Shown here: positions 21,321 to 35,085 of the stretch, in pieces
How the letters are laid out: each line of letters opens with the position of its first letter
How positions within the stretch are numbered: the first letter of the stretch is position 1
DNA from: an uncultured bacterium
Lineage (GTDB): Bacteria; Patescibacteriota; Minisyncoccia; Moranbacterales; GWC2-37-73
DNA length: 64,000 bases
Assembly: GCA_903837175.1 (NCBI GenBank)
Contig: CAILTR010000055.1
Span: 819-64,818, forward strand
Direction: 5' to 3'
Translations under genes and position numbers: made by a program
Notes under the pieces: generated by a model
What the model saw: the letters and a program-made list of their open reading frames with translations, nothing else
The model's database searches: none
Told to the model about the DNA's origin: nothing

Positions 21321-21325
21321 GCTGA

Positions 21326-21673
21326 TTATTTTTCAGTTAGTTTGCTTAACGCTTCTTTCCTGACAATCTCCGAAACATTTCGCTCAATCCGCTCTAAGAT
21401 GTTGATAACTTTAAAAAGAATTACAAAGACAACCACAAAGCCGATAAAAATAAAAGTATTAAGACTTTCGCCGAAGCCCAATTGTTGGGAGATTTTATGC
21501 GTTGCGTTTGGAAAGAGGGAAAAAGCCGCGATGCTAAGCCAGATTATATTGCTGGTGACGAGTTTAAAAAAAGTTTGGCTCTGCTCTCCTTTTAAAAACT
21601 TTAGCCAAGCGCTAAGCAGGAAACTAAGCGCCCCAAGCGCCATAATAATTCTAAAGATAAAGACTAGGGTCAT
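21326..21673 (-). CDS. DUF2304-like small membrane protein accompanying GT2.
   Basis: 115 aa with three TM helices and a C-terminal amphipathic 'ILERIERNVSEIVRKEALS'. Its position upstream of a GT2 is typical. Confidence 0.5.
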   Translation of the reverse strand: MTLVFIFRIIMALGALSFLLSAWLKFLKGEQSQTFFKLVTSNIIWLSIAAFSLFPNATHKISQQLGFGESLNTFIFIGFVVVFVILFKVINILERIERNVSEIVRKEALSKLTEK

Positions 21674-21677
21674 AGGG

Positions 21678-21760
21678 TTCTTGAAGTTATAACGTTTTTA
21701 ACGTTCATAACGTTATAAAGTTATAAAGTAATAAAGTTGTGAAGTAGTAAAATTCTAACG
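21678..21760 (+). repeat. Array of tandem 8-9-nt units (ACGTTATAA / AGTTATAAA / AGTAATAAA).
   Basis: Direct reading. An inverted counterpart sits at 23500-23567. Confidence 0.6.
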
Positions 21761-22399: not shown

Positions 22400-22494
22400 T
22401 ACCAGGTCAACCTCGCTCAGTAAATATATTGTGACGGAGCTAAGCTCCGAATCGGAGCTTAGCTCCGGGATAGCAAACTACAACTAATTAAGTT

Positions 22495-22600
22495 AAGTTG
22501 GTATTATAACGTTAAGAACATTACAAGCGTTCTAACTTTACAAACATTTTAACGTTACAAGCTTTATAAACGTGCTAACGTTAGGAACTTTTAGAGCCTC
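22495..22600 (+). repeat. Array of degenerate 8-9-nt AACGTT-containing units.
   Basis: 'aacgttaag aacattaca agcgttcta ... aacgttaca ... aacgttagg'. Confidence 0.5.
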
Positions 22601-22604
22601 CAAC

Positions 22605-23288
22605 CTACCCTGAAATTATCATCTTAACTAAAGTTTTGAGGCCATTTTTAAGATTCATTTTGTGAACTTTACTCATGGAATATTTAGTATAGCGAACCTC
22701 AATCGGCGTCTCAACGAATTTGAGTTGGTTGCGATGAATTTCGCGGATAACTTCGCTGTCATATTCGTAGCGATCAGTTTTAGTCTCAATCAGGTTGATA
22801 GCTTTTTTAGAATAAGCGCGAAAGCCAGATTGGCTGTCAGTAACCCAAAGTCCATAAATAACTAAGGTACAAAAATTTCCAAAATAGTTAGCGGCAATTT
22901 TCCAAACTGGCATTCCTTTCGGATTTTGTAGTCTAGAACCAAGCACTACGTCATTTCCTTGCTCGATAAAGGCTAGCATTTTTGCAATGTCGCTGGGGTT
23001 GTGTTGGCCGTCTCCGTCAATGGTAACTACAATATCCGCGCCAAGGAGTTTAGCCGCTTCAATTCCAGTTTTAGCTGCCGCGCCCTTCCCCCGATTTAGG
23101 AAGTGCTTTAACGCAATAACTCCAGCTTCTTTCCCAGCTAGCGCATAGGTTTCATCTGCGCTCCCATCATCTATGACGATAATATCGCGATAGCCCGCCG
23201 TCTGAACTTCCTTAATAACAGAAATAATCACCGTCGCCTCATTATACGCTGGGATCAAAATATAAATTTTCTTTGAAATTGTTTCCAT
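22605..23288 (-). CDS. GT2 polyprenyl-phosphate glycosyltransferase (DPM1-like, soluble).
   Basis: 'ILIPAYNEATVI', 'IVIDDGSADET' and 'DGDGQHNP'. Confidence 0.8.
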   Translation of the reverse strand: METISKKIYILIPAYNEATVIISVIKEVQTAGYRDIIVIDDGSADETYALAGKEAGVIALKHFLNRGKGAAAKTGIEAAKLLGADIVVTIDGDGQHNPSDIAKMLAFIEQGNDVVLGSRLQNPKGMPVWKIAANYFGNFCTLVIYGLWVTDSQSGFRAYSKKAINLIETKTDRYEYDSEVIREIHRNQLKFVETPIEVRYTKYSMSKVHKMNLKNGLKTLVKMIISG

Positions 23289-23499
23289 TAGTTAACAATA
23301 GCTTAAATATTAGGAAAAGCAATACCGTGGACCATGGGGCACAGGGCCTTAAAATTTCGAATTTCCAATTCTGAATTTTGAATCAATTTTGAATTATTTA
23401 ATGTTTCAAACATTGGGTCATTAGAATTTTATTCAAAATTCGAAATTCAAAATTCAAAATTATTTCCGTATTCTAAAATCTACCCTTTACTCTTTATCA

Positions 23500-23567
23500 C
23501 TTTACAAACGTTATGAACGTTAAAAACGTTATAACTTTCAACTTTATTACTTTATTACTTTATTCAC
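23500..23567 (+). repeat. Array 'aaacgttatgaacgttaaaaacgttata' followed by (AACTTTATT)x3. It is the inverted counterpart of 21705-21734.
   Basis: Direct reading. 23533-23560 is the reverse complement of 'ataaagtaataaagtt' at 21715-21730. Confidence 0.55.
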
Positions 23568-23614
23568 CCCGTAAAACTCGATTCTCTCGTCACGGGGCAC
23601 GCTTTCAACTTTCT

Positions 23615-24598
23615 TTATTCCCTAAACCCATCTGGATTTTTTCTGTGCCAATTCCAGGCGGTTTCGACAATCTGCTCAATTTCTGGAAACTGCGGTTGCC
23701 AGCCGAGAATAGCTTGGGCTTTTTGGGAGCTAGCAAAGAGATTAGCTGGGTCGCCATCGCGACGGGGCTCTTCGATAACTTTAAAGTCAACGCCGGTAAT
23801 TTTCTTTGAGATATCAATAACTTGGCGCACCGAAGTTCCTTTTTCATTACCAAGATTAAATTTATTAGAGACATTGTTTTTTTCTAGATAAGTCAGTGCT
23901 AGGACGTGCGCCTCGGCTAAATCATTAACGTGGACGTAGTCGCGAACGCCAGTGCCGTCGGCGGTTGGGAAGTCGGTGCCAAAAACTTTAATGGCGTCAT
24001 GTTTACCTAGCGCCGTTAGCAGAATCAAAGTTATTAGATGAGTTTTATTTTTATGGTCAGCTCCAATTTCGCCTGTTGGGTCAGCGCCAGCAGCGTTAAA
24101 ATAGCGCAGGGCGACGGACTTAAGCCCGTAGGCGTGATCGTAAGCGTCAAGGACTTGCTCAAACATTAGTTTAGTCAGGCCGTAGACGTTGGTTGGATTT
24201 TTTGGCGCAGTTTCTTGGATGGGCATTTCCTCAGGTTCGCCATAGACCGCAGCCGAGGAAGAAAAAATAATTTTTTTTACACCGCGCTCGAGCATGGCTT
24301 CTAAGAGATTAAGCCCACACACAAAATTATTTTCAAAAAATCTTTTTGGGTCAGTCATTGACTCGCCAGCTTCAATACTGCCAGCGAAATGCACTACGCC
24401 GTCAAAAGAGTTTTGGGCAAAAACTTTCTTTAAATCTGCTTTACTGGCTAAATCGCCTTCGAAAAGCTCAAAATCTTTAATTGCATCGCGGTGTCCTGAA
24501 GAAAGATTGTCAAAAATAATAATCTCGTGGCCAGCTTCTTTTAATTTTCGAACCGTGTGGCTTCCGATATAACCTGCGCCACCAGTGACTAATAGTTT
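23615..24598 (-). CDS. galE: UDP-glucose 4-epimerase.
   Basis: 'MKLLVTGGAGYIGSH', 'YGLTK' and 'SSSAAVYG'. The start was chosen at MKLLVTGG. Confidence 0.9.
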   Translation of the reverse strand, partial: KLLVTGGAGYIGSHTVRKLKEAGHEIIIFDNLSSGHRDAIKDFELFEGDLASKADLKKVFAQNSFDGVVHFAGSIEAGESMTDPKRFFENNFVCGLNLLEAMLERGVKKIIFSSSAAVYGEPEEMPIQETAPKNPTNVYGLTKLMFEQVLDAYDHAYGLKSVALRYFNAAGADPTGEIGADHKNKTHLITLILLTALGKHDAIKVFGTDFPTADGTGVRDYVHVNDLAEAHVLALTYLEKNNVSNKFNLGNEKGTSVRQVIDISKKITGVDFKVIEEPRRDGDPANLFASSQKAQAILGWQPQFPEIEQIVETAWNWHRKNPDGFRE

Positions 24599-24602
24599 CA
24601 TA

Positions 24603-24640
24603 AAACATAGAACATAGAACATGGAACATATAGCATAAAC
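24603..24640 (+). repeat. Tandem heptamers (AAAACAT AGAACAT AGAACAT GGAACAT ATAGCAT) abutting the galE start codon.
   Basis: On the galE coding strand this reads ATGCTAT ATGTTCC ATGTTCT ATGTTCT ATGTTTT then ATG (the start). Confidence 0.6.
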
Positions 24641-24730
24641 TAGTAAATGCAAATTTAAACTCAAGTTTAAATTGAAATTCGCAAACCATAGTTTATGAAA
24701 TGTCCAATGCCTCGTTTTTAAAAAAGAAAA

Positions 24731-24765
24731 ACTGCTACCTTGATAGTAGCAGTTTTTCTGGGTTT
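24731..24765 (-). terminator. Hairpin terminator for the lipoprotein gene (bidirectional shape).
   Basis: 'ctgctac cttgata gtagcag' is flanked by an A-run upstream and a T-run downstream. Confidence 0.45.
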
Positions 24766-24788
24766 CTTCAACTAACCGGAGGTGCGGT

Positions 24789-25097
24789 CTAAAGTCCGAG
24801 TTCGCCGTCTGGGGTGTCTGTGCCCAGGGCTTTATCGGTGTCTTGAAGCGCTTGGTCGATACCGCTGACTTCGCTGTCGATAGCTTGCTTATTATCGGCT
24901 GGTAGGGGCGCTAATTCAGTAGGCGCAGGTGCCGTAGCCTCTGGGGTGGCTGGCTGAGTCGCTGGGGTAGCTATTGGCGTAGTAGTAATTGGACTTGTCG
25001 TTGTTGATGGTTTAGTGTTAAAGCCACAACCAGAAAAAAGTAAAACTGCTATCGGAAGCATCGAAAGTGCTAAGATACGTTTGAAAGAGGTTTGCAT
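24789..25097 (-). CDS. Thr/Pro-rich lipoprotein.
   Basis: The lipobox is 'LLFSGC' and the mature region is low-complexity TTTP-rich. Confidence 0.5.
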   Translation of the reverse strand: MQTSFKRILALSMLPIAVLLFSGCGFNTKPSTTTSPITTTPIATPATQPATPEATAPAPTELAPLPADNKQAIDSEVSGIDQALQDTDKALGTDTPDGELGL

Positions 25098-25132
25098 AGT
25101 TTTGTTTCTAATGTTTATAAAGCTGATAAATT

Positions 25133-25822
25133 TTATAAGGTTGGTTCTGTTGCAGGGGTAGTAGTTGTTTTTTGGGTAGCTAGAAATTCTCGGATTGTTT
25201 TTAAGTCAGCTTTAATCGTCTTTTCAAAAAAGCTTTTAATCTCTTGGCGGTCAGCCCTGATCAAATCTGGAACTTTGCGGGCAGTTTCTAATTTAGCTTT
25301 AAATTCTCCTTCGGCTTTTCCACAAGCGAAACTCTGGGTTTCTTCCAAACTTGAGATAAAGGTGGCTTGGTCGGTTTTAAGTTTAGCAATTTTAGCTTGC
25401 AGGGTGGCAAGGTCAGTCTCGAATTGTTTAGTATCAGCACCAGCCGTTTTAAGTTTGGTTAGTAGTCTGGTTAATCTCGTTTGCATATTGCCATAGACGT
25501 TTTCAATCATTTGGCCATTGTTTTCATAACGATTGATTCGGTTAGCAATTTTGGTTTCAAGGTTCTTGCATTTTTCTGCAGTAAGTTTTTCTTTGCTATC
25601 TTTAAATTCTAGACGTTGTTGGGCTAACTCATTTTTTCCGTTTCGAATATCTTCTTTTAAGCCAAGACGTTCATTTCTAAGTTGTTGTCGTTGAGTCTGA
25701 AGCTCACTGCGCGTTTGCGGATTGGGGCTATCAGTGCTTGTTTCGGGAGTGCTCCCGAACGCTGGGATAGTGGGTACTGTTAAGGCAAAAGCCATTGACA
25801 AGAGAACGAGTTTTTTGTTCAT
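25133..25822 (-). CDS. Secreted coiled-coil protein.
   Basis: A signal peptide is followed by Gln/Lys/Glu-rich heptad sequence. Confidence 0.45.
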   Translation of the reverse strand: MNKKLVLLSMAFALTVPTIPAFGSTPETSTDSPNPQTRSELQTQRQQLRNERLGLKEDIRNGKNELAQQRLEFKDSKEKLTAEKCKNLETKIANRINRYENNGQMIENVYGNMQTRLTRLLTKLKTAGADTKQFETDLATLQAKIAKLKTDQATFISSLEETQSFACGKAEGEFKAKLETARKVPDLIRADRQEIKSFFEKTIKADLKTIREFLATQKTTTTPATEPTL

Positions 25823-25930
25823 TTGTTTGTTTATTAAAATTAATTATTCTAAAAATATTTTTTTAAAACTTCTTTAATTATATCGCAGCTCTGCTAAATC
25901 TCCAAGAGCTTAAAAGTTGCTTGGTTCTCA

Positions 25931-26058
25931 AATGCTTGTATGATTACATGCTTACATGTTTATATGTTTATATGTTTATATGATTATATGATTGTATGTT
26001 TATATGCTTACATGCTTACATGTTTATATGATTATATGCTTACATGTTTATATGATTA
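25931..26058 (+). repeat. 16 tandem copies of the octamer ATGNTTRY (atgtttat / atgattat / atgcttac). It sits in the divergent promoter region.
   Basis: Direct reading. Every unit starts with ATG. Confidence 0.85.
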
Positions 26059-26126
26059 TGCCTTTACTGGGCCTGACTTTATGCTATACTTTAAATACGT
26101 TAACTAAAGCTAAATAATTTCAACTT

Positions 26127-27068
26127 ATGCAATCAATTCTTATTGTTGTTCCAGCTTATAACGAGGAAAAAAACATTCCCTTGCTTTATAGTGAGCTTAA
26201 AAAAGTTTTTGTGCCACTGTGCGACAATTACTCCTTTGAAATTTTATTTATTAACGATGGCAGTAAGGACAATACTCTAGGAGAAATTGAAAAATTAGCG
26301 GAAATTGATGAACACGTTAAATATCTGGATTTTTCGAGGAACTTTGGTAAAGAAGTTGCCAGCACGGCAGGTCTGAATAATTGCCAAGCCGATGCTTGTC
26401 TGATGATTGATAGCGACCTCCAACATCCCGTGGAGCTAATTCCGCAGTTTCTTGAAAAATGGCAAGCGGGAGCAGAGGTGGTGGTGGGAATTCGAAAGAA
26501 AAATAAAAGCGATTCAATCGTTAAAAGGTTAGGTTCAGCTTTTTTTTATAAAGTTATTAATTGCATTTCAGAAGTGGAGGTTGTGCCAAATGCAACCGAC
26601 TTTCGACTCTTGGATAAAAAAGTGGTGGAGGAATTTAACCGTTTTTCTGAGACAAATCGGATGACGCGGGCTTTAATAGATTGGCTAGGCTTTAGGCGAG
26701 AGTATATTTATTTTGAGGCGAATGAACGAGTTAATGGTACGGCTAGCTATAGCTTTTGGAAGCTTTTTGGTTTGGCGATGAATAGTTTTGTTTCATTAAG
26801 CTTAATGCCCCTCAAGCTGGCTGGTTATCTTGGCGCTGTGATTACCTTAATTGCTGGGGTTTCTGGCGCTTATATTTTACTGGGAAAATATTTTCTGCAT
26901 TTTACCTTGGCCTCAACTTTTTCAGACTCCGAAAATTTAGCAATCTTAATTTTGTTTTTAGTTGGAATCATGCTGACTTCAATTGGGCTAATTTCTTTTT
27001 ACGTTGCCAATATCCATACAGAAGTTATCAGGAGGCCAATGTATGTAACTAGGAAAAGAGAGTTGTAG
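26127..27068 (+). CDS. GT2 polyprenyl-phosphate sugar transferase (GtrB/ArnC-like) with C-terminal TM helices.
   Basis: 'IVVPAYNEEKNI', 'DSDLQHP' and two C-terminal TM helices. Confidence 0.8.
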   Translation: MQSILIVVPAYNEEKNIPLLYSELKKVFVPLCDNYSFEILFINDGSKDNTLGEIEKLAEIDEHVKYLDFSRNFGKEVASTAGLNNCQADACLMIDSDLQHPVELIPQFLEKWQAGAEVVVGIRKKNKSDSIVKRLGSAFFYKVINCISEVEVVPNATDFRLLDKKVVEEFNRFSETNRMTRALIDWLGFRREYIYFEANERVNGTASYSFWKLFGLAMNSFVSLSLMPLKLAGYLGAVITLIAGVSGAYILLGKYFLHFTLASTFSDSENLAILILFLVGIMLTSIGLISFYVANIHTEVIRRPMYVTRKREL

Positions 27069-27137
27069 ACGGTTGCTTTTTTCAGGAAAATTAGCTAAAA
27101 TTAGGGGTGTAATCTAATTATTTTTTCGTTTAAAAGT

Positions 27138-28076
27138 ATGAATGAAAATCCTTTTATGTCAGTAGTTGTGCCTTTGTATGATGAGGAAGGTAATGTAAAG
27201 GAACTACATCGTCGCATTTTAGAGGCTTGTCAGGAAATTGGAAAGCCTTTCGAAATTATTTTCGTTGATGATGGTTCTAAGGATAAAACCGTTGAAAACT
27301 GCAAAGGTCTTTCGCCGCTTACGCTGATTAAATTTCGCAAGAATTTTGGCCAAACCGCTTCTTTCGACGCCGGGATTAAACAAGCCAAAGGTGAAATTAT
27401 TGTGATGATGGATGGGGATTTACAAAATGATCCTGCCGATATTAAGCTATTACTGGCTAAAATCGAAGAAGGTTTTGACGTGGTGGCTGGTTGGCGTTGG
27501 AAGCGAAAAGATAGCCTAAGTAAAAAAATCTTTTCCCGTACAGCTAATCTTTTGCGCAAGATTTTAATTCAAGACAAAATTCACGATAGTGGTTGTTCGC
27601 TAAAAGCCTATAAGCGAAGTTGTTTTGAAGACATGGATCTTTTTGGCGAAATGCATCGTTTTATCCCAGCACTTTTGGAGTTACAAGGTTATAGCGTTGG
27701 GGAAGTTAAGGTTAGCCACCATCCTCGAACTTCTGGGGTGACAAAATATAATTGGAAGCGCGCGATGAAGGGTTTTGTGGATATGCTTTCAATTTGGTTT
27801 TGGCGAAAATATTCGAACCGACCACTCCACCTTTTCGGGGGAACTGGCATTATTTTCTCAATTATCGGTTTTGGAATTTTGGCTTGGATGGCAATTGAAA
27901 AGATCTTTTTTGGAGCTAAGCTTATGAATACTAACTGGCCACTGATTGGAATTTTCTTCGTTTTAGTCGGCATCCAGCTTTTTATCTTTGGCCTGCTAGC
28001 TGATATCTTGCTTAAGGTTTACTATAGAAATCAAAAGCGGATGAATTATAATATTAAAGAGGTGGTTAAGGTCTAG
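27138..28076 (+). CDS. Second GtrB/ArnC-like GT2 with C-terminal TM helices.
   Basis: 'VVVPLYDEEGNV', 'FVDDGSKDKT', 'DGDLQNDP' and two C-terminal TM helices. Confidence 0.8.
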   Translation: MNENPFMSVVVPLYDEEGNVKELHRRILEACQEIGKPFEIIFVDDGSKDKTVENCKGLSPLTLIKFRKNFGQTASFDAGIKQAKGEIIVMMDGDLQNDPADIKLLLAKIEEGFDVVAGWRWKRKDSLSKKIFSRTANLLRKILIQDKIHDSGCSLKAYKRSCFEDMDLFGEMHRFIPALLELQGYSVGEVKVSHHPRTSGVTKYNWKRAMKGFVDMLSIWFWRKYSNRPLHLFGGTGIIFSIIGFGILAWMAIEKIFFGAKLMNTNWPLIGIFFVLVGIQLFIFGLLADILLKVYYRNQKRMNYNIKEVVKV

Positions 28077-28078
28077 AA

Positions 28079-28113
28079 CATAGAACATATAACATATAAC
28101 ATGTAACAGGGGA
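28079..28113 (+). repeat. Tandem heptamers AGAACAT AGAACAT ATAACAT ATAACAT GTAACAG.
   Basis: Same family as 24603-24640. Confidence 0.6.
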
Positions 28114-28255
28114 TAATATAAAGTAAGTAAATATAAAAAATAATAAATTTATCGGAGGAGCTTGGTAAGATGCCTTGGTTGAAAATCAATCGCATTAACA
28201 ATGAATGTGGAAATTTTTTGTTCCATGTTATGTGTTCTATGCTCCATATAATAAT

Positions 28256-29581
28256 ATGAAAATTGGCGTTATTGGCACTGGCTATGTGGGGTCTGTGACG
28301 GGGGCGTGTTTTGCAGAGATGGGCAATACGGTTATTTGCGTCGATAAAGATAAACATAAAATTGCCCAATTCGAATCCGGCAAAGCGCCACTGCACGAAA
28401 AAGGTTTAGACGAATTGGTCCTGCGAAATCTAAAAAATAAAACGCTGACCTTTACGACTGATTTTGAAGATGCAGTTAAAAAAAGTGATATTCTTTTTAT
28501 CGCAGTTGGAACGCCGCCTAATGAAGATGGAAGCGCTGATCTAAGTCACGTCTTAGGCGTAGCAACTTCAATCGGAAAGTCGTTGGATCATGAAATTATT
28601 GTCGTCGATAAATCAACGGTACCAGTTGGGACGGCGGAAAAAGTTCGTCAGCATATTGCTCAGGAACTTCAAAGTCGGGGAGTTGAAATTCCTTTTCACG
28701 TCGTTAGTAATCCAGAGTTTTTAGCTCAAGGCACAGCGGTAAAAGATTTCCTAGAGCCCAGTCGGATTGTAATCGGAGCCGATGAACCAAAAGTTATTGA
28801 GACGATGCGAGAACTTTATGAACCCTTTATGCGACGCGAGGGCAGGTTTTTTGCGATGGACCCCAAAACGGCTGAAATTGTCAAATATGCTTCAAATTGT
28901 TTTTTAGCTGCTAAAATTTCAGTCAATAATGAGCTAGCCAACATTTGCTCTAAAGCTGGCGCTGATTTTGATCATGTGCGTAAGGCGATGGGCGCTGATC
29001 CGCGGATTGGAGAACCTTTTATGTATGCAGGTCCAGGGTTTGGCGGCTCTTGTTTTCCGAAGGATGTCAAAGCTCTAGTAAGGACCGCTAAGGATTTTGG
29101 CTATGATGCTCAAATGCTCCGCCAAACTTTGGAAACTAATGAGCAGCAGAAATTTGTTTTATCGCAAATGGTGGTTGATAAATTGGGGCAGGATTTGAGT
29201 GGAAAAGTTTTTGGCGTGTGGGGCCTGGCTTTTAAGGCTGGCACGGATGATATGCGCGAATCTTCTGCGATTACAATCTTGAATGAATTGATTGCTAGAG
29301 GTGCAAAAATTCAAGCGCACGATCCAGAGTCAATGAAAATGGCAGCCACGCCGGAATATTTTGGAGCTAATCCAAGTATCACCTATTTTGAAAATAAATA
29401 TGAAGCTTTAAGGGATACTGATGCAATGCTAATTATTACGGAATGGAAAGAATTCCGCACGCCTGATTTTACGGAAATTAAGAAACTCCTAAAAACTCCG
29501 CTAATCTTCGATGGTCGTCTTTTATACGAACCAAAGAAAATGCAAGAATTCGATTTTGATTATAATTCGATCGGAAGATAA
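28256..29581 (+). CDS. ugd: UDP-glucose 6-dehydrogenase.
   Basis: 'MKIGVIGTGYVGSV' and 'GFGGSCFPKDV'. Confidence 0.9.
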   Translation: MKIGVIGTGYVGSVTGACFAEMGNTVICVDKDKHKIAQFESGKAPLHEKGLDELVLRNLKNKTLTFTTDFEDAVKKSDILFIAVGTPPNEDGSADLSHVLGVATSIGKSLDHEIIVVDKSTVPVGTAEKVRQHIAQELQSRGVEIPFHVVSNPEFLAQGTAVKDFLEPSRIVIGADEPKVIETMRELYEPFMRREGRFFAMDPKTAEIVKYASNCFLAAKISVNNELANICSKAGADFDHVRKAMGADPRIGEPFMYAGPGFGGSCFPKDVKALVRTAKDFGYDAQMLRQTLETNEQQKFVLSQMVVDKLGQDLSGKVFGVWGLAFKAGTDDMRESSAITILNELIARGAKIQAHDPESMKMAATPEYFGANPSITYFENKYEALRDTDAMLIITEWKEFRTPDFTEIKKLLKTPLIFDGRLLYEPKKMQEFDFDYNSIGR

Positions 29582-29587
29582 AATAGT

Positions 29588-29660
29588 TCATAAGGTTATA
29601 AAGTTCATAAAGTTCATAAGGCTTTGAACTCATAAGGTTTTTAGATTTATAAAGCTGTGA
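29588..29660 (+). repeat. Array of 8-9-nt units (GTTCATAAG / GTTATAAAG / GTTCATAAA ...).
   Basis: Direct reading. An inverted array sits at 30084-30125. Confidence 0.6.
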
Positions 29661-29708
29661 GGCTATAGAGTCTTCAGAATTGTAAATTTTGAACAGGAAA
29701 ATAAAAAA

Positions 29709-30059
29709 ATGGCAAAATTTGAGAGCTTTGAAGATATGCTTGTTTGGCAAAAATCAAGAATTCTTGTTTTGGACAGCTATAAAGCATTTAATAATAGTAG
29801 AGACTTTTCTTTCAGGGATCAAATTTGTAGGGCTGCGGTTTCAGTCATGAACAATATAGCTGAAGGATATGAGAGAAAGGGAAATAAGGAATTTGTGAAA
29901 TTTTTGTATATAGCAAAGGGTTCTTGCGCCGAAGTTAGATCGATGCTTTATTTGGCGGTCGATTTGAAGTATATAGATAAGACTGAATTCGAAAAGACAT
30001 ATAATCAGACTCTTGAAATTTCAAAAATGTTATCGAGCTTAATAAAAAAGATTTGTTAG
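29709..30059 (+). CDS. Four-helix-bundle protein (23S rRNA IVS protein family), intact.
   Basis: 'FEDMLVWQKSRILVLDSY...AAVSVMNNIAEGYERKGNKEFVKFLYIAKGSCAEVRSMLYLAVDL' matches the canonical family pattern. Confidence 0.8.
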   Translation: MAKFESFEDMLVWQKSRILVLDSYKAFNNSRDFSFRDQICRAAVSVMNNIAEGYERKGNKEFVKFLYIAKGSCAEVRSMLYLAVDLKYIDKTEFEKTYNQTLEISKMLSSLIKKIC

Positions 30060-30083
30060 AGATACTCAGAATTTGTATTCAAT

Positions 30084-30125
30084 AAGACTTTAAAAACTTT
30101 ACAAACTTTAAGAACTTTATAACTA
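30084..30125 (+). repeat. Array (AACTTTAAA AACTTTACA AACTTTAAG AACTTTATA). It is the inverted counterpart of the array at 29588-29660.
   Basis: Direct reading. Confidence 0.6.
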
Positions 30126-30127
30126 CT

Positions 30128-31300
30128 ATGAGAATACTTTTTTTTAATTATGAGTTTCCGCCGTTGGGTGGGGGAGCTGGCAATGCCTCCTCTTATTTAC
30201 TGAGAGAATACGCTAAGATGCCTGGGGTGGAAGTTGATTTTGTGACGGCGTCCTTTGATGAAAAATTCCACTGTGAAAATTTTGGAGGAAGTGTTGTTGT
30301 GCATCGTCTGCCGATTGGCAAGAACCAGGAGAATATTCATTTCCAAACGAAAAAGGAAATGCTGAAGTATAGTTGGGAATCCTATAAATATGGTCGAAAA
30401 TTAGCAAAAGAAAGAAAATACGACTTGACCCACTCTTTTTTCTCAGTGCCTTGTGGGTTTATCTCCTTATTGCTTCGTTGGGAATTTAAGCTTCCGTACA
30501 TTATTTCTTTGCGGGGTAGCGACGTTCCAGGTTATAGTGAGCGCTTTGGTTTGCTGTATAAATTCATTACCCCAATTATTAAATTGATTTGGCGACAAGC
30601 TTATTTTGTAATTGCTAATAGTGATGGACTTAAACAGCTAGCCCTACAGTCAGCGCCTCAAAAAGAAATTGGAGTGATTCTTAACGGAATAGATATTGAA
30701 GAATTTTTTCCTGACCATAGCAAAGTTAATCCAGATCAATTTCAGATCGTCTGCATTTCTCGGGTTACGCCACGTAAAGGCATTCGTTTTTTAGTGCAAG
30801 CGTTTAAAATTCTAGCGAGTCGCTATGCTCAAGTTAGAATGCTTATTGCTGGCGAAGGAAACGAATTAAAATCGCTTCAGCAACTAGTCCAAGGACTGGG
30901 GCTAGAGGATAAAGTTGTTTTCCTGGGCGCTGTTCCGCACGCTAAAGTACGGGAGTATTACCAAAAGGCTAACGTTTTTGTATTGCCTTCTTTAAACGAA
31001 GGGATGAGTAATACAATGCTGGAAGCGCTGGCTTGTGGACTGCCAATTGTCGCAACTGATACGGGCGGGACTAAGGAAATGGTAAGGGATGGTCAAAATG
31101 GCTTAATCGTAAAAATGAAAGATTCGAATGATTTGGTCGAAAAAATTGAAAAAATTATGCTTGATCGCGAGCTGGAAAAAGGGATGGGCGTCGCTAGCCG
31201 GCTAATGGCGGAGGAACTTAGTTGGGGGAAGGTTGCCGGTCAATATTTGGATTTATATGAAAAGACGATCAATTTAAGGAAAATTCGTGAAGGAAAATAG
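30128..31300 (+). CDS. Glycosyltransferase family 4.
   Basis: GT-B with the 'EGMSNTMLEALACGLPIVATDTGG' E-x7-E motif. Confidence 0.85.
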   Translation: MRILFFNYEFPPLGGGAGNASSYLLREYAKMPGVEVDFVTASFDEKFHCENFGGSVVVHRLPIGKNQENIHFQTKKEMLKYSWESYKYGRKLAKERKYDLTHSFFSVPCGFISLLLRWEFKLPYIISLRGSDVPGYSERFGLLYKFITPIIKLIWRQAYFVIANSDGLKQLALQSAPQKEIGVILNGIDIEEFFPDHSKVNPDQFQIVCISRVTPRKGIRFLVQAFKILASRYAQVRMLIAGEGNELKSLQQLVQGLGLEDKVVFLGAVPHAKVREYYQKANVFVLPSLNEGMSNTMLEALACGLPIVATDTGGTKEMVRDGQNGLIVKMKDSNDLVEKIEKIMLDRELEKGMGVASRLMAEELSWGKVAGQYLDLYEKTINLRKIREGK

Positions 31301-32421: not shown

Positions 32422-32600
32422 ATTTGATTTATTTAAATTAGAATAAAAAATAAAGGTTGTTAGTTAATAATTTTATCTTGCATGAAAGGAAAAGAGGACA
32501 TTTATTAACGAGATGTTCTTTTTGCTTTTTGTGCTAAGTTATGAGAATAGGTGTTATTCCGTTTTGGCATATTACAAGTTGGAATATATTATGAAAATAT

Positions 32601-32822
32601 ATGAGAAATGAAATTTATTCAAATGGTCATAGGTTTTTAACGCAACAGTTAAAGAAGGCACGAGAAAATTCTGGCTTTAGTCAGAAAGATGTTGCTGAGC
32701 TTTTAACTAAAACTCAATCTTATGTTTCCAAGATTGAGGCGGGGCAACGTCGTATCGATGTAATTCAATTACAAGAATTTGCAAAAATTTATAGAAAGAA
32801 GATTAATTTTTTTATTAAGTAA
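32601..32822 (+). CDS. XRE-family HTH protein. It is a controller (C)-like regulator of the R-M cassette.
   Basis: 'GFSQKDVAELLTKTQSYVSKIEAGQRRIDVIQLQEFAKIY'. It is 73 aa and sits immediately upstream of the small nuclease candidate. Confidence 0.65.
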   Translation: MRNEIYSNGHRFLTQQLKKARENSGFSQKDVAELLTKTQSYVSKIEAGQRRIDVIQLQEFAKIYRKKINFFIK

Positions 32823-32826
32823 ATTT

Positions 32827-33273
32827 ATGTGGGCAAAAAATCTAACTAAGATTAATGATGGAATTTTTAGGACTATTAATGGTAATTCCGATGAAATGAT
32901 AGGCGTCGGAAGGTGCATGAAGGCAGGTTTTCCATGTTCTCGGGCAGATGTAACTAACGGGAGATATGATGCCATTATTGATGTGGGTAATAACAAGTTA
33001 CTAAGAGTTCAAATAAAAGGAACATCTGGTGGAAGCGTTAGTTTTACGGGTGGAGGAAGAAGTGGAAAGCAAATCAGTAGAACAGTTAAACAACGGACAT
33101 ATCGATATTCTCCGGATGATTGTGATTTAATTCTGGTCGTAGATGGAAGAAGTGGGGAATGTTATATTATTCCAATTGAAGATATTCAACAAATGAGTAA
33201 TTCAAAGTCACTCGATAAACTGAGTAAATATAAAGAAAATTGGGATATTCTGAAAACGATGGCAGGAATCTAA
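32827..33273 (+). CDS. Candidate small restriction endonuclease (PD-(D/E)xK-like). Alternatively, a toxin partner of the XRE protein.
   Basis: 148 aa, translationally coupled to the XRE gene. The possible motif is 'YDAIIDV...LLRVQIKG' (D...QxK). It converges on, and overlaps by 4 nt, the methyltransferase gene. Confidence 0.35.
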   Translation: MWAKNLTKINDGIFRTINGNSDEMIGVGRCMKAGFPCSRADVTNGRYDAIIDVGNNKLLRVQIKGTSGGSVSFTGGGRSGKQISRTVKQRTYRYSPDDCDLILVVDGRSGECYIIPIEDIQQMSNSKSLDKLSKYKENWDILKTMAGI

Positions 33274-34835
33274 TTTAGAGCTTTTTTTATTTCTCTTGCA
33301 ACTGCCTCTAGAACAGTTACGGTTACGGAGTTTCCAGCTTGCTTGTAAAGCGCGGAGTCAGCTAAATTTGGAAGCTCAAAATCTCTCGGGAAACCTTGTA
33401 GCCTGAAACATTCAATCGGCGTTAGTTTTCTGATCCCATGCCTATCTTTTATAATTGGAACATTATGTCCTCCCATCCCCATGTTGGCAGTGAGCGTTGG
33501 GCAGACACCTTTTTTATTTTCTCTAACATATTGTCTTCGCCATTGGTAAACCTTACCTTCTTGCGTAACAAAATCTTTAAGTTTTTCGAAAAGAGGCTTA
33601 CCATTATAATAATATTTTTCAGGCACTTTTTGCTCAAGTAGATCAGTAACTTTTATTGATAATTTTTGTGGTTCGGGAAACTTAAATTTGTCTGTGTAAT
33701 TTTTATTTTTAAATCCTATGATATATATCCTTTCGCGATTTTGAGGAATATTTCCATACTCCATACTATTTAAAACCTTAGTTTTTACATGATAACCCAA
33801 GTCTTCCAGGGTTTTGATAATTATTTTAAAAGTTTTTCCTCCGTCATGTCCTTTTAGGTTTTTTACATTTTCCAGTAGAAACCCTGCCGGATTGCGAGCT
33901 TCTAGAATTCTAGCAACATCGAAAAATAAATTACCGCGGTCTTTTTCATCATTAAACCCCTTGCGGTATCCAGCTATAGAGAAAGCTTGGCAGGGAAATC
34001 CTCCCAAGAGAAAGTCGAATTCCGGAAGATCTTCAATGCCAATTTTGCGGATATCCTCTACGACAAGTTTTGATTTTTTGAAATTTAAATCGTAAGTAGT
34101 CTTACAATTTTTTTCAAAGTCATTCGCAAAGACAGTTTCAAAGCCAGCTTTTTCAAAACCAAGTCTAATACCCCCGACGCCAGCAAATAAGTCCAGGGTT
34201 CGGAAAAGTTTTTGATCTGTTTTGCTGCTGTTTTCAAGATTTCTTTTTATCTCAACAACTACGCCTCTAATTTCAACCTCCTTTCTATAAATGGGAAGCA
34301 TTGTTTGGTTAGCTGGTTGCAATCTAAATCGATTTTTTTCTCGATAAATCTTTTTTAGAGTAGCTTCATTATCATCAATTATCGCAACGACAGTTTGTCC
34401 ATTTTCGGCGACGGATTGTTTTTTAATAACGACAATGTCACCATCAAAGATTCCTTCATCAATCATGCTATTTCCCTGAACTTGTAGTGCATAATAATTG
34501 CCAGCTTTATTTACGGCGCTTGTCGCAATCATCACAGTTTCTCCTCTAGTTTCGATAGCTTCAATGGGTTGCCCAGCGGCGATGGTTCCGATTAACGGTA
34601 TCTTAATGAGATTGTAGGGGTTCCTTTTTTTAAGTTCGATACCTCTAGCAGAACTGCCATTTTTTTCTATAAATCCTTTTTTTTCTAAAGTTTCAATATG
34701 TTGATGCACGGTTGAAATAGCAGAAAGTTTGAAATGTTTTCTGATTTCTTCAATAGTTGGAGAAAAAGTTTTTTTATTAATAAACAAGGTTATAAAATCT
34801 AGGATTTGTTTTTGTTTTTTTGTTAGGGTTGGCAT
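33270..34835 (-). CDS. LexA repressor (wHTH plus S24 peptidase) fused in-frame to a C5 cytosine-specific DNA methyltransferase.
   Basis: The N-terminal ~205 aa align along LexA: 'LTKKQKQILDFI', 'SSARGIEL', the 'IAAGQP' Ala-Gly cleavage site, the nucleophile Ser in 'VQGNSM', the general-base Lys in 'VVIKKQ', and 'VVAIIDD'. The C-terminal ~315 aa carry Dcm motifs I 'DLFAGVGG', IV 'GGFPCQAFSIAG' and 'ENVKNL'. There is no stop or start between the two parts. Confidence 0.8.
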   Translation of the reverse strand: MPTLTKKQKQILDFITLFINKKTFSPTIEEIRKHFKLSAISTVHQHIETLEKKGFIEKNGSSARGIELKKRNPYNLIKIPLIGTIAAGQPIEAIETRGETVMIATSAVNKAGNYYALQVQGNSMIDEGIFDGDIVVIKKQSVAENGQTVVAIIDDNEATLKKIYREKNRFRLQPANQTMLPIYRKEVEIRGVVVEIKRNLENSSKTDQKLFRTLDLFAGVGGIRLGFEKAGFETVFANDFEKNCKTTYDLNFKKSKLVVEDIRKIGIEDLPEFDFLLGGFPCQAFSIAGYRKGFNDEKDRGNLFFDVARILEARNPAGFLLENVKNLKGHDGGKTFKIIIKTLEDLGYHVKTKVLNSMEYGNIPQNRERIYIIGFKNKNYTDKFKFPEPQKLSIKVTDLLEQKVPEKYYYNGKPLFEKLKDFVTQEGKVYQWRRQYVRENKKGVCPTLTANMGMGGHNVPIIKDRHGIRKLTPIECFRLQGFPRDFELPNLADSALYKQAGNSVTVTVLEAVAREIKKALN

Positions 34836-34989
34836 AAGCTTTATTTGATATAAGTTTGTTAATATTTATATTATATACCGAAAATTTACCGAAGTGCAAA
34901 CAACTATTTTTAAAACTTAAAATAGCCTATAAGAAAGCCAAAAAATGCTTTAATTGAAAAATTACTTTTTCTGAAATTTTAATTAGCGA

Positions 34990-35009
34990 GCAGAATAATT
35001 GAGTTCTGC
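34990..35009 (+). promoter_or_regulatory. Palindrome GCAGAA-N8-TTCTGC in the divergent promoter region. It is a candidate operator.
   Basis: 'gcagaataattgagttctgc' lies 155 nt upstream of the lexA-methylase start and 77 nt upstream of the GT-C gene. Confidence 0.3.
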
Positions 35010-35085
35010 GTTGCCTTGCCTTTTCTACTTGAATAACCTATAATTAACCTTATAAGAAAGGGAAAAATATAAGAATTTTAGGACT

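What the first reader, a model, noticed from the sequence alone, without database searches (positions are those of the whole stretch)
33270..34835. Complete LexA repressor fused in-frame to a C5 cytosine DNA methyltransferase
The 521-aa ORF aligns over its first ~205 residues with full-length LexA.
- The DNA-binding start is 'LTKKQKQILDFI' versus E. coli 'LTARQQEVFDLI'.
- 'SSARGIEL' is present.
- 'IGTIAAGQP' carries the Ala-Gly self-cleavage site.
- The nucleophile Ser sits in 'VQGNSM'.
- The general-base Lys sits in 'VVIKKQ'.
- 'NGQTVVAIIDDNEATLKKI' follows.

After a ~9-aa linker it continues straight into a canonical Dcm-type methylase, with motif I 'LDLFAGVGG', ENV 'ENVKNL' and PC 'GGFPCQAFSIAG'.

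Type II methylases with a simple N-terminal HTH autoregulatory domain (M.SsoII-like) are known. A fusion to an entire autocleavable S24 LexA module is not, to my knowledge, a described architecture.

This fusion would couple methylase autorepression to RecA*-stimulated self-cleavage. DNA damage could then de-repress, or functionally uncouple, the methylase from the R-M partner.
Basis: partly seen in the sequence, partly recalled or inferred. Interest (0 to 1): 0.85.

Follow-up and report, generated by a model that had tools for sequence, protein, structure and literature searches.

The report
SOS repressor LexA fused to restriction-modification methylase
This gene really does encode one protein that joins a complete self-cleaving LexA DNA-damage repressor to the protective methylase of a restriction-modification system, and the same kind of fusion (with four or five different methylase families) turns out to be the usual form of LexA in many candidate-phyla-radiation bacteria, which suggests that these cells wire genome methylation directly into their DNA-damage response.

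Summary
ORF 33270-34835 (minus strand, 521 aa) matches LexA_DNA_bind, Peptidase_S24 and C5 DNA_methylase full-length and in that order, and scores above NCBI's LexA equivalog cutoff. One detail was wrong: the general-base Lys is K161 ('EATLKKI'), not 'VVIKKQ'.

It is not an assembly artefact. The identical protein occurs in independent assemblies, and at least 120 clusters share the architecture.

The finding generalises:
- Of 80 species-representative genomes with this LexA clade (Patescibacteria/CPR), 76 carry LexA fused to a DNA methyltransferase: 36 C5, 28 beta N6/N4, 10 D12, 2 gamma.
- In an operator-selected metagenome sample about two thirds are fused.
- The partner is always a DNA MTase, almost always abutting a restriction endonuclease gene, often under a C protein.
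- Ala-Gly, Ser and Lys are 100% conserved in 78 non-free LexA modules (76 confirmed fusions).

The promoter carries a direct-repeat operator (TTCGG-N6-TTCGG, 34878-34893) between the -35 and -10 elements. It is exclusive to these promoters in 756 kb, and its variants track the recognition helix. The same box precedes a dinB gene.

Best reading: an autorepressed, SOS-cleavable R-M methylase. RecA*-induced cleavage is untested. No description was found in the searchable literature.

The parts
33270..34835 (-). LexA-S24-C5 DNA methyltransferase fusion gene (521 aa)
   Evidence: ORF list; Pfam and NCBIfam hits; identical protein on independent assemblies; at least 120 clusters with the same architecture
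34641..34835 (-). LexA winged-HTH DNA-binding domain (residues 1-65). Recognition helix S41-T42-V43-H44-Q45-H46.
   Evidence: PF01726, 58 bits; alignment to E. coli LexA; helix residues co-vary with the operator variant
34572..34577 (-). Codons for Ala87-Gly88, the predicted self-cleavage bond
   Evidence: Aligns to E. coli A84-G85; A and G 100% conserved in 78 non-free LexA modules (76 confirmed fusions)
34254..34598 (-). Peptidase S24 autoprotease / dimerisation domain (residues 80-194). Ser123 is at codon 34467-34469 and Lys161 at codon 34353-34355.
   Evidence: PF00717, 105 bits; S123 = Ec S119 and K161 = Ec K156; both invariant
34212..34238 (-). Flexible linker (residues 200-208) joining the end of LexA to the native N-terminus of the methylase
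   Evidence: AlphaFold pLDDT below 50 at 200-208; a standalone homologue starts 'MSKKKQKLKTIDLFAGVGG' at this point
33282..34205 (-). C5 cytosine DNA methyltransferase domain (residues 211-518). Motif I DLFAGVGG, motif IV GFPC282Q, ENV, QNRER, GNSV. Predicted target GCNGC.
   Evidence: PF00145, 316 bits; M.HhaI end-to-end, 200 bits; catalytic motifs invariant in 43 homologues; GCNGC depletion 0.58; sister fusions pair with Bsp6I and NgoFVII-type REases
34878..34893 (-). Predicted LexA operator: direct repeat TTCGGtaaattTTCGG, 11-bp period
   Evidence: Only exact match in the 64-kb window; 38 of 38 exact copies in 756 kb of related loci lie within 200 nt upstream of the fusion gene on its strand; co-varies with the recognition helix; the same box precedes a dinB gene
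34870..34899 (-). Core promoter of the fusion gene: -35-like TTGCAC (34894-34899), operator as spacer, -10 TATAAT (34870-34875)
   Evidence: Read from the sequence. The TATAAT abutting the second repeat is conserved across loci. The consensus scanner did not call it because the -35 matches only 3 of 6.
32827..33273 (+). Putative restriction endonuclease (148 aa; PD-(D/E)XK, PF11645). Convergent with the methylase gene, overlapping its stop by 4 bp.
32601..32822 (+). Controller (C) protein, 73-aa HTH_3, 4 nt upstream of the REase gene
   Evidence: PF01381, 50 bits; homologues lie downstream of the cassettes in 17 related loci of both C5 and N6/N4 classes
32554..32592 (+). C-box-like operator (TTATTCCgtttTGGCATATtacaagtTGGAATAT) overlapping the promoter TTGGCA-17-TATTAT, which ends 8 nt before the C-gene ATG (leaderless-type)
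   Evidence: Conserved with co-varying arms upstream of C genes in more than 15 loci; promoter of 12

Best explanation
The gene encodes a bifunctional protein: a complete LexA repressor whose C-terminus continues, through a ~9-residue flexible linker, into the C5 methyltransferase of a Type II restriction-modification system (predicted target GCNGC).

The cassette layout is: [LexA box in promoter -> LexA-M] -> <- [R <- C <- C-box].

Proposed mechanism, step by step:
1. As a dimer (through the S24 domain), the protein binds the direct repeat TTCGG-N6-TTCGG that forms the spacer of its own promoter. This holds methylase synthesis at a low, self-limited level, as M.SsoII, M.Ecl18kI and M.EcoRII do with a simple HTH. 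In a naive cell the promoter is open, so methylase appears first. The C protein delays the endonuclease.
2. When DNA is damaged, including by the cell's own endonuclease at unmethylated sites left by repair or replication, RecA-ssDNA filaments stimulate Ser123/Lys161 cleavage of the Ala87-Gly88 bond. The DNA-binding domain is lost and the promoter opens. A burst of methylase, as new fusion protein and as the freed S24-MTase fragment, re-protects the genome. In effect this is an SOS-driven 'restriction alleviation' for a Type II system.
3. The same LexA module, with the same box, also represses classical SOS genes such as dinB. In these small genomes the SOS master repressor and the R-M methylase would then be one polypeptide.

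Shown here: the architecture, conservation of all catalytic residues of both halves, the operator and its specificity, the R-M context, and recurrence with four or five MTase families.

Inferred: DNA binding, RecA*-induced cleavage, the direction of the effect on methylase activity, and the global SOS role.
For: Architecture:
- Three full-length domains in order.
- Alignment to solved LexA places the cleavage site and catalytic dyad.
- AlphaFold shows three folded units with flexible linkers at 71-74 and 200-208.

Real and widespread:
- The identical protein occurs in independent assemblies.
- At least 120 clusters at 90% identity carry the same architecture.
- 76 of 80 species-representative loci are fused to a DNA MTase.
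- 27 fused against 13 free in an operator-selected metagenome sample.

Selection on self-cleavage and on methylation:
- A87, G88, S123 and K161 are 100% conserved in 78 non-free LexA modules (76 confirmed fusions).
- The MTase motifs are invariant.
- Vsr genes lie next to six C5 fusions.
- GCNGC is the most depleted interrupted palindrome in the window, 105 observed against 182 expected.

Operator:
- It is the only exact copy in the window and lies between the -35 and -10 elements.
- In 756 kb of related loci, 38/38 TTCGG, 24/30 TTCTA, 8/12 TTCGA and 3/3 TTCGC repeats lie in the fusion promoters.
- The two half-sites change together and track the recognition helix: GG with ST[VI]H[QE]H, TA with STAH[YHF][YH], GC with ATVHKH. 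This holds across different MTase classes.
- Direct-repeat LexA boxes with the same 11-bp period are known in Alphaproteobacteria (PMC8565304).
- The same box plus -10 precedes a full-length DinB and free LexA genes.

R-M context:
- Convergent REases of the MvaI/BcnI, Bsp6I and NgoFVII families and the window's PD-(D/E)XK type.
- C protein with a conserved C-box.
- The same R-M pair also exists unfused, and its MTase starts where the linker is.

Precedent: regulatory MTase-repressor fusions (PMC12707154).
Against: - No experiment exists. DNA binding, cleavage and methylation are all inferred.
- In RecA*-LexA cryo-EM structures the LexA CTD dimer lies inside the filament groove, with its C-terminal tail near the cleavage loop (PMC11787620). 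A 35-kDa domain on a ~9-residue linker could hinder RecA*-stimulated cleavage.
- The operator and the DNA-binding domain are physically adjacent and so are co-inherited. Part of the helix/operator correlation could therefore reflect linkage rather than recognition.
- Apart from one dinB (and a GC-rich dnaE2-like hit that is probably not CPR), no other SOS gene with the box was seen. There are none in the window or in 756 kb of flanks.
- I could not check whether the same genomes hold a second, free lexA, or recA.
- The fate of the S24-MTase fragment after cleavage (stable or degraded) is unknown. The sign of the response therefore rests only on the derepression logic.
Confidence: 0.6

Rival explanations
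1. Local regulator only. The LexA module has been co-opted purely as the autorepressor of the R-M methylase gene (a larger M.SsoII-type N-terminal domain). It is not the cell's SOS master regulator; another LexA, or no SOS system, governs repair genes.
For: - In the 64-kb window and in 756 kb of related flanks, the exact TTCGG-type operator occurs only in the fusion promoters.
- The cassettes lie in unrelated genomic contexts, consistent with mobile R-M units.
- The same R-M pair exists unfused next to a recombinase.
Against: - The LexA part scores as an NCBIfam LexA equivalog.
- Free LexA orthologues at 55-65% identity share the same promoter and operator architecture.
- The same box precedes a dinB gene.
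- None of the 80 species-representative hits came from the same assembly as another, so no close second copy was seen.
- The catalytic dyad and cleavage site are 100% conserved, which a mere DNA-binding tag would not need.
Confidence: 0.2
2. Damage-triggered suicide switch. Cleavage at Ala-Gly exposes degrons, as in E. coli LexA, so the S24-MTase fragment is degraded. Methylation then lapses, the stable endonuclease attacks the chromosome, and the damaged or infected cell is killed (abortive-infection-like).
For: - In E. coli both LexA cleavage fragments are degraded by ClpXP and Lon (established knowledge).
- R-M systems can cause post-segregational killing (established knowledge).
- The fusion is almost always abutted by a REase gene.
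Against: - Cleavage also removes the repressor from the promoter, so synthesis of new full-length methylase should rise at the same time.
- The same LexA box controls a repair polymerase, which fits survival rather than suicide.
- Vsr repair genes accompany several cassettes.
- There is no evidence on fragment stability either way.
Confidence: 0.1
3. RecA*-blind dimeric DNA-binding tag. The C-terminal methylase sterically prevents entry into the RecA* groove. The LexA module then only supplies dimerisation and operator binding. Derepression occurs by titration of the protein onto unmethylated target sites, as EcoRII methylase represses only when its sites are methylated, or by slow intrinsic autocleavage.
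For: - The LexA CTD is deeply buried in the RecA* groove and its C-terminal tail lies near the cleavage loop (PMC11787620).
- The linker is only ~9 residues.
- The EcoRII methylase precedent for substrate-dependent repression (PMC12707154).
Against: - The cleavage site and Ser/Lys dyad are conserved at 100%, and the S24 domain is more conserved (0.77) than the DNA-binding domain (0.61), across 78 non-free LexA modules joined to different MTase families. This argues that proteolysis is still selected.
- In the cryo-EM complex only one subunit of the dimer is buried, which leaves room for appendages.
Confidence: 0.1
4. Assembly or annotation artefact: two adjacent genes joined by a lost stop codon, a frameshift error or a chimeric contig.
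For: The source is a metagenome assembly, and the architecture is unusual.
Against: - The identical 521-aa product occurs on independently assembled contigs from different pipelines.
- At least 120 clusters at 90% identity from NCBI, JGI, ENA and Logan have 98-100% coverage and the same three domains.
- 76 species-level genomes carry fusions at the same junction.
- The linker corresponds to the native N-terminus of a standalone homologue.
Confidence: 0.01

Closest known systems
Regulatory ('dual-function') Type II methyltransferases: M.SsoII, M.Ecl18kI, M.EcoRII, M.MspI
   Same: A C5 methylase carries an N-terminal sequence-specific DNA-binding region that binds an operator at its own promoter and autorepresses the methylase gene. 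This ties R-M expression to methylase level (PMC12707154; PMC3978073 and PMC2760811 listed).
   Different: - In those enzymes the N-terminal region is a ~70-residue HTH with no protease. Here it is a complete ~200-residue LexA with an S24 autoprotease, an Ala-Gly site and a Ser/Lys dyad, so repression is predicted to be removable by DNA damage.
- In SsoII and Ecl18kI the operator lies between divergent R and M promoters and also switches R on. Here R is convergent and has its own C-protein and C-box control.
- The LexA fusion occurs with C5, beta, alpha and gamma MTases, not only C5.
Canonical LexA (E. coli, Thermotoga; TIGR00498, MEROPS S24)
   Same: Same two domains, same cleavage site and catalytic dyad, above the equivalog cutoff. 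A LexA box lies in its own promoter. A direct-repeat box with 11-bp period resembles the alphaproteobacterial GTTC-N7-GTTC.
   Different: It carries a 310-residue DNA methyltransferase at its C-terminus and is part of an R-M cassette. Its regulon beyond itself is documented here only by one dinB site.
C-protein-controlled Type II R-M systems (PvuII, BamHI, Esp1396I and others)
   Same: A small HTH C protein sits upstream of, and is co-transcribed with, the endonuclease. A C-box operator overlaps a promoter that gives a leaderless-type transcript (PMC2175313 listed).
   Different: The methylase arm is not constitutive or C-controlled. It carries its own LexA-type repressor domain.
DNA-damage-responsive control of anti-phage defence (WYL-domain regulators such as BrxR and CapW; SOS-dependent restriction alleviation of Type I systems)
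   Same: A conceptual link between DNA-damage sensing and the activity of a defence system (own knowledge; related papers listed).
   Different: Those use separate transcription factors, or ClpXP proteolysis of HsdR. Here the damage-sensing repressor is covalently part of the modification enzyme of a Type II system.

Membership tests
LexA repressor (TIGR00498 / PF01726+PF00717, MEROPS S24) | N-terminal winged-HTH LexA DNA-binding domain | tested here: met
   PF01726 covers residues 1-65 against profile positions 1-65/65, 58 bits; aligned end to end with E. coli and T. maritima LexA
LexA repressor (TIGR00498 / PF01726+PF00717, MEROPS S24) | S24 domain with Ser-Lys catalytic dyad and Ala-Gly cleavage site | tested here: met
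   PF00717, 105 bits; A87-G88, S123 and K161 align to Ec A84-G85, S119 and K156; 100% conserved in 78 non-free LexA modules (76 confirmed fusions)
LexA repressor (TIGR00498 / PF01726+PF00717, MEROPS S24) | Whole-protein score above the curated equivalog cutoff | tested here: met
   183.6 bits against 110.95, residues 1-200 on profile positions 1-202/203
LexA repressor (TIGR00498 / PF01726+PF00717, MEROPS S24) | Autoregulation through a LexA box in its own promoter | tested here: met
   Computational only. The TTCGG-N6-TTCGG repeat lies between -35 and -10; it is exclusive to these promoters; it co-varies with the recognition helix. Binding itself was not tested.
LexA repressor (TIGR00498 / PF01726+PF00717, MEROPS S24) | Controls an SOS regulon (recA, uvr, dinB and others) | tested here: inconclusive
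   The same box plus -10 lies 6 nt before a full-length DinB in a groundwater contig. No other site occurs in the window or in 756 kb of flanks.
LexA repressor (TIGR00498 / PF01726+PF00717, MEROPS S24) | RecA*-stimulated self-cleavage | not testable with these tools
   Needs biochemistry. Steric caveat from RecA*-LexA cryo-EM.
C5 cytosine DNA methyltransferase (PF00145 / TIGR00675) | Conserved motifs I (FxGxG), IV (PCQ), VI (ENV), VIII (QxRxR), X (GNSV) in order, with a target-recognition domain between VIII and IX | tested here: met
   PF00145 covers profile positions 1-324/324, 316 bits; TIGR00675 340.8 bits; M.HhaI residues 12-323 aligned, 200 bits; motifs invariant in 43 homologues
C5 cytosine DNA methyltransferase (PF00145 / TIGR00675) | Methylates a defined target in vivo | tested here: inconclusive
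   Indirect evidence only: GCNGC depleted to 0.58 of expectation; sister fusions pair with Bsp6I (GCNGC) and NgoFVII-type (GCSGC) REases and with Vsr; Bsp6I-REase-MTase fusions occur in the same subfamily. No methylome data.
Type II restriction-modification system with C protein | Endonuclease gene adjacent to the methylase gene | tested here: met
Type II restriction-modification system with C protein | Small HTH controller gene upstream of R, with a C-box operator | tested here: met
   HTH_3, 50 bits; 4-nt gap to R; conserved, co-varying inverted repeats upstream of 15 or more homologues; overlapping promoter call
Regulatory MTases of the SsoII/Ecl18kI/EcoRII type | N-terminal DNA-binding region fused to the MTase, with an operator at the MTase promoter | tested here: met
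   Architecture and predicted operator
Regulatory MTases of the SsoII/Ecl18kI/EcoRII type | N-terminal region is a short (~70 aa) HTH without other activity. The operator lies between divergent R and M promoters, so M binding activates R. | tested here: not met
   The N-terminal region is a 200-aa LexA with an S24 protease. R is convergent and C-controlled. The protein therefore works like this class but is not a member by descent.

The most novel reading that the evidence does not exclude
Across much of the Candidate Phyla Radiation, the SOS master repressor has been merged repeatedly and independently with the modification enzyme of resident Type II R-M systems. The partners span four or five unrelated MTase families (C5, beta m4C/m6A, alpha D12, gamma Eco57I/TaqI-like), and the modules have been re-assorted many times.

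RecA*-induced LexA self-cleavage would then simultaneously launch the SOS response and boost genome methylation. This would be a built-in feedback that protects repaired or replicated DNA from the cell's own endonucleases, equivalent to a Type II 'restriction alleviation'.

A consensus DnaA box just upstream of most of these promoters hints at additional coupling to replication initiation.
Probability: 0.45. Interest if true: 0.88.

Novelty: new variant of a known kind. Interest (0 to 1): 0.8.

Why it matters
- **A new regulatory principle for R-M systems.** Methylase-repressor fusions are known, but none is known whose repressor is a self-cleaving DNA-damage sensor. If the model holds, Type II systems in these bacteria have solved the self-restriction problem (unmethylated DNA after repair or replication) by putting modification under SOS control.
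- **It changes how the SOS system of CPR bacteria should be read.** These are a very large, mostly uncultured part of bacterial diversity with tiny genomes. Their 'lexA' genes are mostly about 480-630-aa bifunctional genes, auto-annotated either as LexA or as a methylase but not as both.
- **Recurrence argues for strong selection.** The same fusion with four or five methylase families, with repeated re-assortment, gives a natural experiment on operator/recognition-helix co-evolution (GG, TA, GA and GC half-sites).
- **It is directly testable** with one purified protein and a 30-bp operator.

Tried and rejected
- **Palindromic operator.** A dyad-symmetry search upstream gave only AT-rich -10-like words such as TATAAT-N3-ATTATA. 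I rejected these in favour of the direct repeat.
- **Second lexA, vsr, recA or uvr in the window.** None found.
- **DnaA box in the window.** No exact copy, and one-mismatch copies are at chance level. The DnaA-box association holds for sister loci, not for this window.
- **Phage origin.** Eleven close LexA hits on IMG/VR contigs are all free LexA of 197-211 aa. There is no evidence that the fusion is phage-borne.
- **Other N-terminal extensions on the closest C5 MTases.** None is LexA or S24; two are Bsp6I REase fusions.
- **Non-MTase fusion partners.** None. Every divergent tail tested is a DNA MTase.
- **Prior description.** Nine literature searches and three targeted paper reads found none. 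The one paper most likely to bear on it is not held and could not be checked: Sanchez-Osuna, Barbe & Erill 2017, Environ Microbiol 19:3465, on the Patescibacteria SOS network. It may already report the operator motif.
- **Metagenome operator scan.** About 60% of matches were not upstream of LexA, and most of those look like chance hits in GC-rich DNA. Only dinB (L152), a dnaE2-like ORF (L130) and a pair of 82-aa ORFs look meaningful.
- **Promoter scanner.** It did not call the fusion promoter, because the -35 is weak.


Full report
**1. The observation**

The window holds an uninterrupted 521-codon ORF at 33270..34835 on the minus strand.

- NCBIfam places residues 1-200 above the curated cutoff of the LexA equivalog model (183.6 bits against 110.95). 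It places residues 214-516 in the dcm superfamily.
- Alignment to solved LexA structures fixes the functional residues: Ala87-Gly88 is the cleavage bond, Ser123 the nucleophile and Lys161 (in 'EATLKKI') the general base.
- The methylase half aligns end to end with M.HhaI.
- AlphaFold predicts three folded units joined by low-confidence segments at 71-74 (the LexA hinge) and 200-208 (the junction). pTM is 0.59, so there is no confident inter-domain packing.
- There is no start codon at the junction, so the methylase can only be made as part of the fusion.

**2. Not an artefact, and not a singleton**

- The identical protein is encoded on independently assembled contigs.
- The 5.8-billion-protein index returns at least 120 clusters at 90% identity with 70-100% identity, 98-100% coverage and the same three domains. 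Where named, they are called either 'transcriptional repressor LexA' (Moranbacteria, Paceibacterota, Patescibacteria) or 'DNA (cytosine-5)-methyltransferase 1'.
- The exhaustive search of 1.84 billion cluster representatives gave the key surprise. Proteins matching only the LexA part (60-64% identity) are also far too long.
- Their tails are other DNA methyltransferases: Eco57I-type gamma, beta-class N6_N4, D12/Dam-class alpha, and a C5+Eco57I double.

**3. How general it is**

I scanned one genome per species (GTDB representatives) with a LexA-only profile. It found at least 580 loci, and the best 80, all from different assemblies, were analysed.

Extending each LexA match to its stop codon and classifying the tails gave:

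| Partner | Loci |
|---|---|
| C5 MTase | 36 |
| Beta N6/N4 MTase (25 long, 3 short) | 28 |
| D12-class MTase | 10 |
| Gamma-class MTase | 2 |
| Contig-truncated, unclassifiable | 1 |
| Free LexA | 3 |

- One of the three free LexA genes is followed 22 nt later by a co-directional methylase-like gene.
- That sample is ranked by similarity to a fusion, so I took a second, architecture-blind sample: metagenome sites matching operator plus -10 box.
- Among 48 such sites followed by a LexA ORF, 27 ORFs are longer than 240 aa and 13 are free LexA of 197-205 aa. About two thirds are therefore fused.
- Every tail tested is a DNA methyltransferase.
- Record titles are overwhelmingly CPR/Patescibacteria lineages: Moran-, Kuenen-, Staskawicz-, Giovannoni-, Jackson-, Levy-, Shapiro-, Berkel-, Taylor- and Zambryskii-bacteria, and Paceibacterota. 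A few odd labels in automatically named MAG series are probably unreliable.

**4. The genomic unit is an R-M cassette**

- In nearly every locus the fusion gene is abutted, within 0-14 bp or overlapping, by a partner gene.
- The long N6/N4 fusions pair with MvaI/BcnI-family endonucleases.
- The C5 fusions pair with at least eight unrelated endonuclease families, including Bsp6I and NgoFVII-type.
- The D12 and short beta fusions are followed by a second methylase.
- A 73-aa HTH_3 controller protein lies beyond the endonuclease in 17 loci of both C5 and N6/N4 classes. It carries a conserved, co-varying C-box upstream.

In the window itself:
- The partner is a 148-aa PD-(D/E)XK protein (32827-33273), just above the Pfam cutoff for PF11645.
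- It has 393 close homologues, and several have the same longest-contig length as a listed fusion protein.
- The same endonuclease family is also found convergent with a standalone 318-aa C5 methylase. That methylase is 69% identical to the window's methylase half and starts exactly where the fusion's linker lies. It has no repeat upstream and sits next to a serine recombinase and a Rep protein.
- In another genome the family follows C and Mrr-like genes opposite a LexA-C5 fusion.
- The window's C gene (32601-32822) has its C-box at 32554-32587, overlapping a promoter call that ends 8 nt before the ATG.

Evidence that the methylase is active:
- Vsr genes, the T:G mismatch endonuclease that accompanies active m5C methylases, lie divergently upstream of six C5 fusions.
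- GCNGC is the most depleted of the 16 interrupted 5-mer palindromes in the window: 105 observed against 182 expected, with all four variants at 0.55-0.60. This fits the Bsp6I/NgoFVII partners and the Bsp6I-REase-MTase fusions in the same subfamily.

**5. The operator**

- Upstream of the fusion genes there is a direct repeat with an 11-bp period, placed between a -35-like TTGnnn and the TATAAT box.
- In the window it reads TTGCAC-[TTCGG]TAAATT[TTCGG]-TATATAAT, at 34899-34870 on the minus strand. It is the only exact TTCGG-N6-TTCGG in 64 kb.
- In 756 kb of related loci, counting both strands, all 38 exact TTCGG repeats lie within 200 nt upstream of the fusion gene on its strand. The same is true of 24 of 30 TTCTA, 8 of 12 TTCGA and 3 of 3 TTCGC repeats.
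- The two copies change together, and the variant tracks the residues at the positions of E. coli LexA N41-L47:
  - GG with ST[VI]H[QE]H
  - TA with STAH[YHF][YH]
  - GA with ST[AVI]H[HYF]H
  - GC with ATVHKH
- Each type spans several methylase classes and free LexA.
- Direct-repeat LexA boxes with the same period are already known (GTTC-N7-GTTC in Alphaproteobacteria; PMC8565304).
- The same box plus -10 lies 6 nt before a full-length DinB polymerase gene in a groundwater contig.

I therefore read the repeat as the LexA box of this clade and the fusion gene as autoregulated. One caveat applies: the operator and the DNA-binding domain are adjacent and co-inherited, so the covariation is suggestive rather than proof of recognition.

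**6. Evolution**

- On a rough neighbour-joining tree of the LexA parts, the methylase class changes at least 18 times.
- A robust example: C5 methylases 75-79% identical to the window's are attached both to GG-type LexA and to a TA-type LexA clade that groups with LexA from N6/N4 and D12 fusions.
- The modules have therefore been re-assorted repeatedly, always at the same junction, after '...IIRN(L/F)'.
- The cleavage site and catalytic dyad are 100% conserved in 78 non-free LexA modules (76 confirmed fusions), and the S24 domain is more conserved (0.77) than the DNA-binding domain (0.61). This argues that proteolysis, and not only DNA binding, is under selection.

**7. Mechanism**

The best-supported model is an autorepressed, SOS-cleavable R-M methylase, detailed step by step under Best explanation.

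- It works like the known 'dual-function MTase repressors' SsoII, Ecl18kI and EcoRII (PMC12707154). It is not a member of that group by descent, its repressor is a damage-sensing autoprotease, and the endonuclease arm has separate C-protein control.
- The predicted physiological role is to raise modification when DNA damage and repair create unmethylated sites, or when the resident endonuclease itself causes breaks.
- The main uncertainty is steric. In RecA*-LexA cryo-EM structures the S24 dimer sits in the filament groove, with its C-terminal tail near the cleavage loop (PMC11787620).
- The rivals are a local-only regulator, a suicide switch and a RecA*-blind tag. They are listed with the tests that would separate them.

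**8. Novelty**

- The sequences are public by the hundreds, but I found no description of the architecture.
- A 2025 review of R-M biology of about 270,000 characters has no occurrence of 'LexA'.
- A survey of SOS domain architectures has no occurrence of methylase or restriction.
- The 2017 comparative-genomics paper on the Patescibacteria SOS network could not be read. It may already report the binding motif, and I cannot exclude that it mentions the fusions.
- I class the finding as a new variant of a known kind (regulatory methylase fusions) that is unexpectedly widespread.

**9. Context of the window**

- The window has 37.9% G+C.
- The cassette is embedded in a large cell-envelope glycosylation island with many glycosyltransferases, several PMT_2-family paralogues, Wzy_C proteins and UDP-glucose dehydrogenases.
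- There are no SOS genes, no second lexA and no vsr in the window.
- The closest relatives are Moranbacteria MAGs.

Noticed in passing
Loci L003-L082, 200 nt upstream of the LexA(-MTase) genes; not present in window 34836-35085: A consensus DnaA box (TGTGGATAA, the reverse complement of TTATCCACA, usually followed by CT) lies just upstream of the -35 element in most of these promoters. It is exact in 39 of 81 regions and within one mismatch in 60 of 81. 40 of the 54 exact boxes in 756 kb fall in these 200-nt windows, where I estimate about 0.2 by chance from base composition. The box typically ends 12-16 nt before the first LexA-box repeat. It is also present at free lexA genes. This suggests DnaA input into lexA/methylase expression in CPR bacteria. 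The window's own promoter lacks it.
   Followed up: partly
Loci L045, L047, L048, L049, L052, L053, L057, L068 and others (long N6/N4 fusions); window 32564-32603 for the C gene: In the long N6/N4 fusion class the TATAAT box lies only 6 nt before the ATG, implying leaderless mRNAs. The window's C gene likewise has its -10 box ending 8 nt before the ATG.
   Followed up: no
window 33270-33273: The stop codons of the convergent methylase and endonuclease genes overlap by 4 bp, with no terminator between them. The same tail-to-tail abutment (0-14 bp) recurs in most related cassettes, so convergent transcription may itself be regulatory.
   Followed up: no
window 34990-35009: A perfect 6-bp-arm palindrome, GCAGAAtaattgagTTCTGC, sits in the divergent intergenic region, nearer the PMT-family gene that starts at 35086. 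Its function is unknown and it is not the LexA operator.
   Followed up: no
whole window: Besides GCNGC (0.58), the palindromes CCGG (0.67), GGCC (0.68) and GATC (0.71) are also under-represented relative to a maximal-order Markov expectation. This hints at further R-M pressure in this lineage.
   Followed up: no
window 8267-9409 (+): A 380-aa YhcG-type PD-(D/E)XK nuclease (DUF1016_N + YhcG_C, 187 and 144 bits), a family often linked to defence or mobile elements.
   Followed up: no
window ~20500-31300 and 35086-62000: A very large cell-envelope glycosylation island surrounds the cassette. It holds many GT2 and GT4 glycosyltransferases, several consecutive PMT/PMT_2-family membrane proteins of 520-702 aa, two Wzy_C proteins, two UDP-glucose dehydrogenases, a LytR_cpsA_psr protein and a 23S_rRNA_IVP four-helix-bundle gene at about 29709-30059.
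   Followed up: no
L162 and L121 (metagenome contigs): Two homologous 82-aa ORFs of unknown function each sit 59-83 nt behind a T-rich-spacer TTCGG-N6-TTCGG plus TATAAT site. They are candidate small members of the CPR LexA regulon.
   Followed up: no
L080, L138, L139, L203-L206, L209, L210: Free LexA genes of this clade, including those on short IMG/VR 'viral' contigs, are repeatedly followed 43-75 nt downstream by a conserved ORF of about 271 aa that matched none of my MTase seed sequences. In L156 the downstream gene looks like a uracil-DNA glycosylase (GQDPYH motif).
   Followed up: no
P0262 versus P0253 (proteins): The 222-aa 'free' LexA P0262 ends with a tail (NGVQDSTLAYKKKILKNG...) that resembles the linker of the D12-type fusion P0253 (NKVQNNTLAYKKKTFLEE...RYAGGKS). 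Some free LexA genes may therefore be decayed or truncated fusions.
   Followed up: no
P0261 and P0204 (proteins): Close relatives of the window's methylase domain occur as single-chain Bsp6I-endonuclease-C5-methylase fusions of 539 and 567 aa.
   Followed up: no
L258 positions 3869-6992 (GCA_054039515.1): A variant cassette in which the C-protein operon carries an Mrr-like (Mrr_N + Mrr_cat) nuclease as well as the PD-(D/E)XK endonuclease, opposite a LexA-C5 fusion. Its promoter has repeats on both sides of the -10 box, TTCGA-N6-TTCTA upstream and the inverted copy downstream.
   Followed up: no
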